Source: a phage. From it: a stretch of 1,197 nt of DNA. A model generated the notes under the pieces. It saw nothing but the letters and a program-made list of their open reading frames with translations, did no database searches and was not told where the DNA came from. The stretch lies in the sequence record OR846209.1, one strand, 5' to 3'. The position numbers were made by a program, and so were the translations under genes. Shown in pieces: positions 1 to 1,197 of the stretch; the stretch's first letter is position 1, and every line of letters begins with the position of its first letter.

Positions 1-58
1 CGTCAATCCAGTCGATAACCTCAAAAGTCGAAGGATGGTAGTACACATATTTAGTCAT
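1..58 (-). CDS. 5' end of a downstream minus-strand ORF (3'-truncated by window edge); function unknown, by position a candidate tail-fibre assembly/chaperone or other accessory gene
   Basis: ATG at 58..56 lies 4 nt after the tail-fibre stop. Hand translation of the minus strand gives MTKYVYYHPSTFEVIDWID... open to the window edge. Only 19 codons are visible, and I do not recognise the N-terminus as a classical Tfa (lambda Tfa / Mu U / P2 G) start. The region is AT-rich. Confidence 0.35.
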   Translation of the reverse strand, partial: MTKYVYYHPSTFEVIDWID

Positions 59-62
59 ATTT

Positions 63-68
63 TCACCA
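63..68 (-). promoter_or_regulatory. Putative ribosome-binding site (TGGTGA on minus strand) for the downstream ORF, overlapping the last codon and stop of the tail-fibre gene
   Basis: Minus-strand sequence ...TTCATGGTGAAAATATGACT...: GGTG core at 67..64, about 5 nt spacer, ATG at 58..56. Weak Shine-Dalgarno match; arrangement fits translational coupling. Confidence 0.3.
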
Positions 69-1197
69 TGAAATTTTTACAAAACCATCAGAACCGCGCC
101 CACCAGAATATCCAGATATCGCGGAGCGCGTATTTTGGCTCAATGACGCACCACCACCACCACCAGCTCCATAGCCATCGGCATTTCCTCCGTTTGCAAA
201 TGCAGCCGCACTGCCGCCTGTGCCAAAGGCCGAACCCACACCAACCCCTCCTGGAGATGATTCGGTAGATGTAAATTCTGCTATTTTGCCGCTGCTACCT
301 AATCCGCCTTTAGCAGTGATATTAATAAAAGATGAGTCGCCTCCATCAAGCCCTAGTTCACCTGCATCCCCTTTAATTAGCGTATGGCCTTGTCCATTAG
401 GACCAATAGATGTTCTATCTTCATATGAACGTACAAAACCGCCGCCTCCACCTGAACCTCCAGCCCCAACAGAAACCGTATAAGTTTTTTTAGATGTCAC
501 ACCTATAATGGCAATTTTTAATTCTCCATGATTACCTCCCCTACCAGCTGAATAGGCATTAGTCTTATCGGGATCAGGAGTACATCCACCACCACCTCCT
601 CCACCACCTCCTCCCAGCATTTCAACAAAAACCTGCGTTACCCCATCAGGCACAGTAAAAGTCCCATTAGCTGTAAAAAACTGGTATCGAGGCCCGTTTG
701 AAGCTGCCGTATTTGCCAGATTCAGTGCCGCATTCGCCTTATCCATCGCCGCTTTCACCGCGCTCGGCGTCGCCGCCTCCGTCGTACTGGTGCTGTCGGT
801 GGCGTTATTAAGCTTCACGATCCCTTTTTGCGTTAGCGTACCGTCCGGGGTGCCGGTGATCTGCCCCCAGGCGTGAGTATGGCTGGCCGGGGCCGCCGCA
901 CTCGCCTTATCCATCGCCGCCTTTACCGCACTGGGCGTTGCCGCTTCTGTGGTACTGGTGCTGTCCGTCGCGCTGTTAAGTTTCACGATCCCTTTTTGCG
1001 TCAGCGTACCGTCCGGGGCGCCGGTGATCTGCCCCCAAGCGTGTGTATGCCTAGCCGGAGCCGCCGCACTCGCCTTATCCATCGCCGCCTTGACCGCACT
1101 GGGCGTTGCCGCTTCGGTGGTGCTGGTGCTATCGGTGGCGTTATTAAGCTTCACAATCCCTTTTTGCGCCAGCGTGCCGTCCGGGACACCGGTAACC
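63..1197 (-). CDS. Phage/prophage tail fibre protein, 3' portion (5'-truncated by window edge): repeated shaft motifs plus glycine-rich C-terminal distal domain
   Basis: Minus-strand ORF in the six-frame track (63..1154, 363 aa) ending at TGA (63..65). The 'M' at 1154 is a GTG that corresponds to Val in the internal repeat motif GIVKLN. Hand translation of 1155..1196 in the same frame gives ...VTGVPDGTLAQKGI with no stop, so the gene continues upstream past position 1197. The repeat motif GIVKLN(N/S)ATDSTSTTEAATPSAVKAAMDKA...HTHAWGQITG matches my memory of enterobacterial phage tail-fibre repeats (the Pfam Phage_fiber_2 type); not verified by search. Confidence 0.88.
   Translation of the reverse strand, partial: VTGVPDGTLAQKGIVKLNNATDSTSTTEAATPSAVKAAMDKASAAAPARHTHAWGQITGAPDGTLTQKGIVKLNSATDSTSTTEAATPSAVKAAMDKASAAAPASHTHAWGQITGTPDGTLTQKGIVKLNNATDSTSTTEAATPSAVKAAMDKANAALNLANTAASNGPRYQFFTANGTFTVPDGVTQVFVEMLGGGGGGGGGGCTPDPDKTNAYSAGRGGNHGELKIAIIGVTSKKTYTVSVGAGGSGGGGGFVRSYEDRTSIGPNGQGHTLIKGDAGELGLDGGDSSFINITAKGGLGSSGKIAEFTSTESSPGGVGVGSAFGTGGSAAAFANGGNADGYGAGGGGGASLSQNTRSAISGYSGGRGSDGFVKISW
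66..725 (-). other. Glycine-rich C-terminal distal domain of the tail fibre (putative receptor-binding tip)
   Basis: After the last repeat the protein becomes unique: ...RYQFFTANGTFTVPDGVTQVFVEML-GGGGGGGGGG-CTPDPDKT...VGAGGSGGGGGF...GLDGGDSS...KGGLGSSGK...PGGVGVGSAFGTGGSAA...GYGAGGGGGASL...GYSGGRGSDGFVKISW. Multiple poly-Gly blocks are separated by short non-Gly segments. Position at the C-terminus of a tail fibre is where receptor-binding domains normally sit. Function is inferred, not demonstrated. Confidence 0.6.
584..613 (-). repeat. (GGN)10 codon tract encoding a 10-residue poly-glycine run
   Basis: Plus strand reads tccaccaccacctcctccaccacctcctcc, i.e. ten consecutive Gly codons (GGA/GGT) on the coding strand, directly between the ...TQVFVEML segment and CTPDPDKT... 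Confidence 0.85.
726..1197 (-). repeat. In-frame tandem repeat array, unit 168 bp / 56 codons, about 2.8 copies in window (array open at right edge)
   Basis: The string cgccttatcc recurs at 735, 903 and 1071 (spacing exactly 168 bp). Hand alignment of unit 735..902 against 903..1070 shows about 20 mismatches in 168 (about 88% identity). Encoded peptide units are nearly identical (differences N/S, A/T, R/S). Similarity decays below about 726. Confidence 0.92.

What the first reader, a model, noticed from the sequence alone, without database searches (positions are those of the whole stretch)
1..68. Tightly coupled downstream ORF with unrecognised N-terminus immediately after the tail-fibre stop
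The tail-fibre TGA (63..65) is followed after 4 nt by ATG (58..56), with a GGTG Shine-Dalgarno-like element inside the last tail-fibre codons and no intervening hairpin or terminator. This implies co-translation of a partner protein. The position is where tail-fibre assembly chaperones are normally encoded, yet the visible N-terminus (MTKYVYYHPSTFEVIDWID) does not look like a lambda Tfa, Mu U or P2 G start to me. It may be a different chaperone family or an unrelated accessory gene. The segment is AT-rich (about 37% GC by eye).
Basis: partly seen in the sequence, partly recalled or inferred. Interest (0 to 1): 0.45.

Follow-up and report, generated by a model that had tools for sequence, protein, structure and literature searches.

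The report
Tail-fibre chaperone gene start (DUF4376 type)
The 19 codons at the window edge start a 201-residue prophage protein of the DUF4376 family, most likely the assembly chaperone for the glycine-rich tail-fibre tip encoded just upstream; it is ordinary but shows clearly how such chaperones are built from swappable halves.

Summary
On the minus strand the fibre gene stops at TGA 65..63, AAAT follows, and ATG 58..56 opens MTKYVYYHPSTFEVIDWID. No terminator or stable hairpin intervenes, and GC of 1..68 is 38%.

A Salmonella phage contig is 97.6% identical to the window and exact over the last 130 nt. There the ORF runs 201 aa and passes Pfam's DUF4376 threshold. It gives no Caudo_TAP hit, the family of lambda Tfa, Mu U and P2 G. 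Distant DUF4376 proteins are experimentally shown fibre chaperones (Alteromonas V22, Campylobacter CJIE1).

In 48 related loci the conserved DUF4376 C-half is joined to four unrelated N-halves. Each N-half pairs with exactly one fibre-tip type. The window type (27 loci) always follows a glycine-rich tip ending GFVKISW, 3-6 nt after its stop.

Verdict: a tip-specific N-module fused to a generic DUF4376 module. It is a new member of a known kind and of low to moderate interest. RefSeq already labels the gene "DUF4376 domain-containing protein". Binding and chaperone activity are inferred, not shown.

The parts
1..58 (-). First 19 codons (plus one base) of the downstream gene: N-terminal, fibre-tip-specific module of a DUF4376-type tail-fibre assembly chaperone (201 aa in the nearest relative).
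   Evidence: translation. (201-aa ORF L001:3237-3842). (last 130 nt exact in L001). (the 19 aa hold invariant Y4, W17, D19 and near-invariant Y6, P9, V14, D16 of the N-module family). (DUF4376, 42-46 bits against a cut-off of 25, residues 87-193).
59..62 (-). 4-nt intergenic spacer AAAT between the fibre stop and the chaperone start.
   Evidence: The spacing is 3-6 nt in all 27 window-type loci and 4 nt in 13 of them.
63..67 (-). GGTGA Shine-Dalgarno-like element, formed by the last two bases of the final Trp codon plus the TGA stop codon (65..63).
   Evidence: -7.4 kcal/mol against the anti-SD; 2% of shuffles as good. (present in 15 of 27 related junctions; replaced by weak TGG-TAA in 8).
66..716 (-). 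Glycine-rich tip domain of the tail fibre (ANTAASNGPRYQFFTANGTFTVPDGVT...GGGGGGGGGG...GYGAGGGGG...GFVKISW), the presumed client of the chaperone.
   Evidence: ORF. (Gly_rich_2 PF21722, 23.9 bits, just under the 24.3 cut-off). (precomputed weak Gly_rich_2 hit). (conserved Gly-rich framework with hypervariable loops). (no solved relative by sequence).
727..1193 (-). Phage_fiber_2 shaft repeats of the tail fibre (168-nt unit, 2.8 copies). The fibre ORF runs on beyond base 1197.
   Evidence: tandem repeat. (Phage_fiber_2, 4 stretches in the 589-aa L001 fibre, plus the Phage_tail_fib N-terminal domain).

Best explanation
The ORF starting at 58..56 (minus strand) encodes a two-module intermolecular tail-fibre assembly chaperone of a P2-like myovirus prophage of Salmonella. 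The N-terminal ~85 residues, of which the window shows the first 19, form a small beta-sandwich that recognises the conserved framework of the glycine-rich tip domain of the fibre encoded just upstream. The C-terminal ~115 residues are a DUF4376 module shared with chaperones of quite different fibres. That module probably oligomerises and brings three fibre chains into register, the role given to the C-terminal helical domain of Mu Tfa and Pam3 gp25. The gene is translated from the same late message as the fibre, probably by ribosomes that reinitiate 4 nt after the fibre stop, so client and chaperone are made together. Shown here: gene structure, family membership, junction geometry, modular architecture, and one-to-one pairing of N-module with tip type. 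Inferred: physical binding, oligomerisation, translational coupling, and whether the protein leaves the mature fibre.
Confidence: 0.8

Rival explanations
1. The protein is a structural component that stays on the mature fibre as a distal cap or adhesin (as T2/T6 gp38 does, or as Mu Tfa stays bound), and contributes to receptor recognition instead of acting only during assembly.
For: PHROG 1807 and 2837, which it matches, are labelled 'tail fiber protein' and 'tail protein'. Moraxella phage homologues are annotated 'tail protein'. Mu Tfa remains bound to its fibre (as cited in PMC7882524). DUF4376 chaperones of Alteromonas phages are proposed to be transient caps (PMC10579305).
Against: The downstream protein is not where the variability lies. 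Its N-module is 98.8% identical between loci whose fibre tips are only 56% identical, and the variable stretches are loops between the Gly-rich motifs of the fibre itself. The glycine-rich motifs that make up the gp38-type adhesin are in the fibre, not in this protein. The database labels are names based on position, not tests.
Confidence: 0.12
2. It is an accessory or cargo gene (moron) that happens to lie after the fibre gene and has no role in fibre biogenesis.
For: DUF4376 is formally a domain of unknown function. NCBIfam has no model for it. The N-module has the lowest GC in the region, 38% against 48-59% for its neighbours. Cargo genes do follow a little further downstream.
Against: Strict pairing of N-module with tip type in 48 of 48 loci. 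Conserved 3-6 nt junction with the fibre gene. Chimeras that join recognised Tfa N-halves (Caudo_TAP 1 to about 70) to the same DUF4376 module. Structural top hits are fibre chaperones. No PADLOC defence hit. Experimental chaperone role in distant family members (PMC7289586, PMC7882524).
Confidence: 0.04
3. The window's own copy is a pseudogene or truncated remnant, so the 19 codons do not lead to a full protein in this particular genome.
For: The sequence beyond base 1 is not available. Decayed copies exist: L034 has a deletion fusing the fibre repeats out of frame into the DUF4376 gene, and P0192 carries a frameshifted C-terminus.
Against: The two closest relatives (97.6% and 95.5% DNA identity) have intact 201-aa genes, and L001 is identical over the last 130 nt. 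The fibre ORF in the window is intact up to its stop.
Confidence: 0.04

Closest known systems
DUF4376-type tail-fibre chaperones: Alteromonas phage V22 gp27 and A5 gp9; the gene downstream of the Campylobacter CJIE1 prophage H-fibre
   Same: They carry the same Pfam domain (PF14301) in the C-terminal half, have a similar size (about 195-240 aa), are encoded immediately after the fibre gene, and have a variable N-terminal part. A chaperone role is shown by co-expression (PMC7289586, PMC10579305, PMC7882524).
   Different: Sequence relatives only at the level of the DUF4376 domain. phmmer hits outside Enterobacteriaceae cover only residues ~85-200 at 30-45% identity. Their client fibres have knob-type or P2 H-like tips, not the glycine-rich tip seen here. 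The window-type N-module was found full-length in only two representative clusters (P0006, P0123) of 1.84 billion proteins.
Cyanophage Pam3 gp25, chaperone of the glycine-rich fibre gp24 (PDB 7YPX)
Caudo_TAP family (PF02413): lambda Tfa, Mu U / TfaMu (PDB 5YVQ), P2 G
   Different: No Caudo_TAP hit even at E <= 1. hhalign of DUF4376 against the four reference Tfa proteins gives probability 1%. The conserved C-terminal helical segment of Caudo_TAP is replaced by a larger alpha/beta DUF4376 module.

Membership tests
DUF4376 (Pfam PF14301) | Score at or above Pfam's gathering threshold (25 bits) for the domain model | tested here: met
   46.2 bits (L001 copy, residues 87-193) and 42.5 bits (P0001). 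This applies to the full-length relative; the 19 residues inside the window lie outside the domain.
DUF4376-type tail-fibre chaperones | Encoded immediately downstream of, and on the same strand as, a tail-fibre gene | tested here: met
   4-nt gap in the window. 3-6 nt in 27 of 27 window-type loci, and -4 to +15 nt in the other types. P2-like tail gene order.
DUF4376-type tail-fibre chaperones | Required for folding or activity of the cognate fibre; forms a complex with it | not testable with these tools
   Known only for distant members (PMC7289586, PMC7882524).
Caudo_TAP (Pfam PF02413; lambda Tfa, Mu U, P2 G) | Score at or above the gathering threshold (22.1 bits) for the Caudo_TAP model | tested here: not met
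   No hit at E <= 1 for P0001 or P0041. Positive controls lambda Tfa, Mu U and P2 G score 127-148 bits. Sister chimeras P0083, P0107 and P0118 score 26-31 bits on the first half of the profile only.
Modular Tfa architecture (TfaMu / Pam3 gp25 type) | N-terminal beta-sandwich with the fold of the fibre-binding domain | tested here: inconclusive
Modular Tfa architecture (TfaMu / Pam3 gp25 type) | Non-conserved N-domain that goes with the fibre tip, and a conserved C-domain shared between different fibres | tested here: met
   N55 clusters 27/19/1/1 coincide with tip clusters 27/19/1/1, and there is a single C-module cluster.
Modular Tfa architecture (TfaMu / Pam3 gp25 type) | C-terminal domain forms a trimeric helical bundle | not tested
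T2/T6 gp38-type adhesin | Downstream protein itself carries the glycine-rich motifs and hypervariable receptor-binding loops | tested here: not met
   The glycine-rich motifs and the variable loops are in the fibre. The downstream protein has none, and it is 98.8% conserved where the tips are only 56% identical.

The most novel reading that the evidence does not exclude
The window-type N-module (consensus M-x-K-Y-A-Y-Y-x-P-x-x-F-x-V-L-D-W-x-D...) is an undescribed family of Tfa-like fibre-binding domains dedicated to glycine-rich tips. In enterobacterial P2-like prophages, host range would then be exchanged as a two-part cassette (fibre tip plus chaperone N-module), flanked on the left by the conserved fibre repeats and on the right by the conserved DUF4376 module and a co-travelling 151-aa gene. 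Both flanks would serve as homology arms for recombination. On this reading DUF4376 is a generic oligomerisation module, functionally interchangeable with the C-terminal half of Caudo_TAP although unrelated to it in sequence.
Probability: 0.45. Interest if true: 0.4.

Novelty: new member of a known kind. Interest (0 to 1): 0.27.

Why it matters
Retargeting phages and tailocins requires moving the matching chaperone along with the receptor-binding tip. These data indicate which piece must travel with a glycine-rich tip (the first ~85 residues of the downstream protein) and which piece is generic (the DUF4376 half). That is a practical rule for engineering Salmonella and E. coli P2-like fibres.

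The result would also let database annotators rename a widespread "DUF4376 domain-containing protein" as a tail-fibre assembly protein. It also corrects a statement in the literature that DUF4376 is the conserved C-terminus of Mu Tfa. It does not open a new area of biology.

Tried and rejected
- **E. coli megablast of the window:** matched only the fibre repeats at 78-79%, so it was no help for the junction.
- **NCBIfam and PADLOC:** no model for the 201-aa protein.
- **PDB by sequence with a family profile:** nothing.
- **hhalign between the four N-module types:** no relation found, all probabilities below 6%. However, types B, C and D, which all hit Caudo_TAP in Pfam, did not find each other either, so this test has no power and I drew no conclusion from it.
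- **First clustering attempt:** it merged everything, because the last 200 aa of the fibres still contain shared repeats. A second attempt merged the tips through compositionally biased glycine matches. With composition-corrected BLAST on the last 90 aa the clusters separate cleanly.
- **NCBP3 Pfam hit on residues 3-28:** 22 bits against a cut-off of 28.9; dismissed as chance.
- **P0192 as a window-type N-module with a different C-module:** rejected; it is a frameshifted copy.
- **Tip domain against PDB by sequence:** only a poly-Gly artefact.
- **Source of the window:** the exact source genome was not found among the fetched loci.

Full report
**1. Observation**

On the minus strand, the tail-fibre ORF ends with TCA TGG TGA, with the TGA at 65..63. 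Four bases (AAAT, 62..59) follow. Then ATG at 58..56 opens a frame reading MTKYVYYHPSTFEVIDWID, which runs off the window at base 1.

- In that frame a TAA lies at 79..77, and no other start codon lies between it and 58..56, so the start is unambiguous.
- GGTGA (67..63) pairs with the 3' end of 16S rRNA at -7.4 kcal/mol. Only 2% of shuffles of the upstream 25 nt do as well.
- There is no terminator-like site at the junction.
- The junction RNA folds no better than shuffled sequence (z = +0.51).
- GC of 1..68 is 38.2%.

Nineteen open codons alone would not prove a gene; the relatives do.

**2. Extending the ORF**

The window is 97.6% identical to an unannotated 6-kb contig of Salmonella phage S.Kent 1-2-1 (OR850896.1 = L001). 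The last 130 nt of the window are identical to it.

In L001 the ORF is 201 aa (3237..3842). The genes before it are Baseplate_J, Tail_P2_I and a 589-aa fibre. That fibre has a Phage_tail_fib N-domain, four Phage_fiber_2 repeats and a glycine-rich tip scoring just under the Gly_rich_2 threshold.

In Salmonella and E. coli chromosomes the same genes close a P2-like tail cluster (U-X-D-V-W-J-I-fibre-ORF) next to yjbD-rluF-pepE-yjbB-metH. This is the slot that gene G occupies in P2.

**3. Family**

- The 201-aa protein passes Pfam's threshold for DUF4376 (46.2 bits against 25; residues 87-193).
- It matches PHROG 2837 ('tail protein') end to end.
- It gives no Caudo_TAP hit even at E <= 1.
- Lambda Tfa, Mu U and P2 G score 127-148 bits on Caudo_TAP and nothing on DUF4376.
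- RefSeq calls the protein 'DUF4376 domain-containing protein'; a few sources call it 'phage tail fiber assembly'.

A search of 1.84 billion representative proteins finds 516 relatives. Nearly all are 140-250 aa long and match only residues ~85-200. The window-type N-terminus appears full-length in just two representative clusters.

**4. What is known about DUF4376**

- A5 gp9 is its homologue; the A5 fibre folds without it, and a 'transient cap' role was proposed (PMC10579305).
- The Campylobacter CJIE1 H-fibre works only when co-expressed with the downstream DUF4376 gene (PMC7882524).

That last paper equates DUF4376 with the conserved C-terminus of Mu Tfa. My controls do not support this (hhalign probability 1%, with a shallow Tfa profile).

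**5. Modularity and pairing**

Homologues keep the C-terminal ~115 residues (…RDxxTADYIIIDGNHFHSD…DYDYSxGWQP) at 70-99% identity, while the N-terminal part is replaced wholesale. I extracted the chaperone, the upstream fibre and the junction from 48 loci.

| Piece compared | Clusters |
|---|---|
| First 55 chaperone residues | 27 / 19 / 1 / 1 |
| Last 110 chaperone residues | one cluster of 48 |
| Last 90 fibre residues (composition-corrected BLAST) | 27 / 19 / 1 / 1 |

The fibre-tip clusters coincide with the N-module clusters:

- The window type always follows tips ending …G·GS·GFVKISW.
- The lambda-Tfa-like type always follows …NIAFNYIVRLA.
- The two singletons follow two other tips.

The N-modules of the three non-window types match the first half of Caudo_TAP (profile 1 to about 70 of 131), and DUF4376 replaces the second half. 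DUF4376 therefore occupies the place of the conserved C-domain of classical Tfa proteins.

Within the window type:

- N-module identity follows tip identity (Spearman 0.56) more than C-module identity does (0.31).
- One and the same N-module (98.8% identical) serves tips only 56% identical.
- Those tips differ in the loops between conserved glycine-rich motifs.

This points to recognition of the conserved framework, not of the receptor-binding loops. It also argues against the downstream protein being the adhesin.

**6. Structure**

AlphaFold gives a confident model (pLDDT 93.8): a beta N-domain (1-74), a long helix (76-102) and an alpha/beta C-domain with a second long helix (159-182). The whole model has no specific solved relative.

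The scores are weak, but the ranking is specific. Pam3 gp25 binds a TNF-like plus glycine-rich fibre tip through exactly this domain and trimerises through its C-terminal helices (PMC9608196). The 19 residues visible in the window form the first two strands. They include three invariant positions of the family (Y4, W17, D19) and four nearly invariant ones (Y6, P9, V14, D16).

**7. Junction**

The 3-6 nt gap is universal in the window type (27 of 27 loci). The SD-like GGTGA is a by-product of Trp plus a TGA stop, and it is lost where the stop is TAA (8 of 27). Reference pairs are equally tight: a 1-nt overlap in lambda, a 2-nt gap in Mu and a 3-nt gap in P2. Coupled translation is therefore plausible and typical, but it remains an inference.

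**8. Verdict**

The ORF is the start of a DUF4376-type tail-fibre assembly chaperone whose N-module is specific for glycine-rich tips.

The gene and domain are already catalogued, and the function is known for distant members, so this is a new member of a known kind. The modest added value has three parts:

- a clean demonstration of the tip/N-module cassette;
- the structural link of the N-module to Pam3 gp25 and Mu Tfa;
- the finding that DUF4376 replaces, rather than equals, the Caudo_TAP C-terminal half.

Binding, oligomerisation, and release or retention of the protein remain to be shown.

Noticed in passing
L001:3839-4294 (beyond the window's left edge); same position in 45 of 50 related loci: A 151-aa ORF overlaps the chaperone stop by ATGA. 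It is conserved after the DUF4376 gene whatever the chaperone's N-module type (51-100% identity). It has no Pfam, NCBIfam, PADLOC or PDB-sequence hit; only PHROG 1128, with an implausible 'enoyl-CoA hydratase-like' label. It travels with the DUF4376 module and may be a further fibre-assembly factor or a conserved cargo gene.
   Followed up: partly
L034:5042-6315: A decayed copy in a second prophage of the genome that also holds L007. A deletion fuses the fibre shaft repeats (…ANHTH) out of frame into the middle of the DUF4376 gene, removing the tip and the chaperone N-module. P0192 shows the same frameshifted C-terminal reading.
   Followed up: partly
L053:3150-5985 (also L054, L055): A gtrA / gtrB / gtrC-like O-antigen glucosylation cassette (GtrA_DPMS_TM, Glycos_transf_2, GT_STM0557_N) sits inside the P2-like tail gene cluster, between the baseplate V and W genes, in Salmonella.
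   Followed up: no
window 1-1197 and L001:1463-4294: Stepwise GC changes along the cassette: fibre repeats 59-63%, tip 48%, chaperone N-module 38%, DUF4376 module 49%, 151-aa ORF 54%. This fits a mosaic origin with the N-module as the most foreign piece.
   Followed up: partly
window 727-1193: A 168-nt tandem repeat, 2.8 copies at 88% identity, encoding the Phage_fiber_2 shaft repeats (HTHAWGQITG…AVKAAMDKA). Such near-identical repeats are likely sites for copy-number change and for the recombination that swaps tips.
   Followed up: no
P0131 (protein): A 6967-residue protein with 18 separate DUF4376-like stretches. This is a very different setting for the domain from the usual 150-250-aa phage proteins.
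   Followed up: no
window 35-268, 220-483 and other plus-strand ORFs: Several 30-90-aa ORFs antisense to the fibre gene (His-, Pro- and Arg-rich translations). They have the look of shadow ORFs of a Gly-rich, GC-rich gene; no evidence that they are genes.
   Followed up: no
L001:5029-5757 (also L053:11797-12525): A 242-aa ORF in a low-GC stretch (38%; the spacer before it is 30%) downstream of the tail module. It has no Pfam or PADLOC hit and is probably prophage cargo.
   Followed up: no
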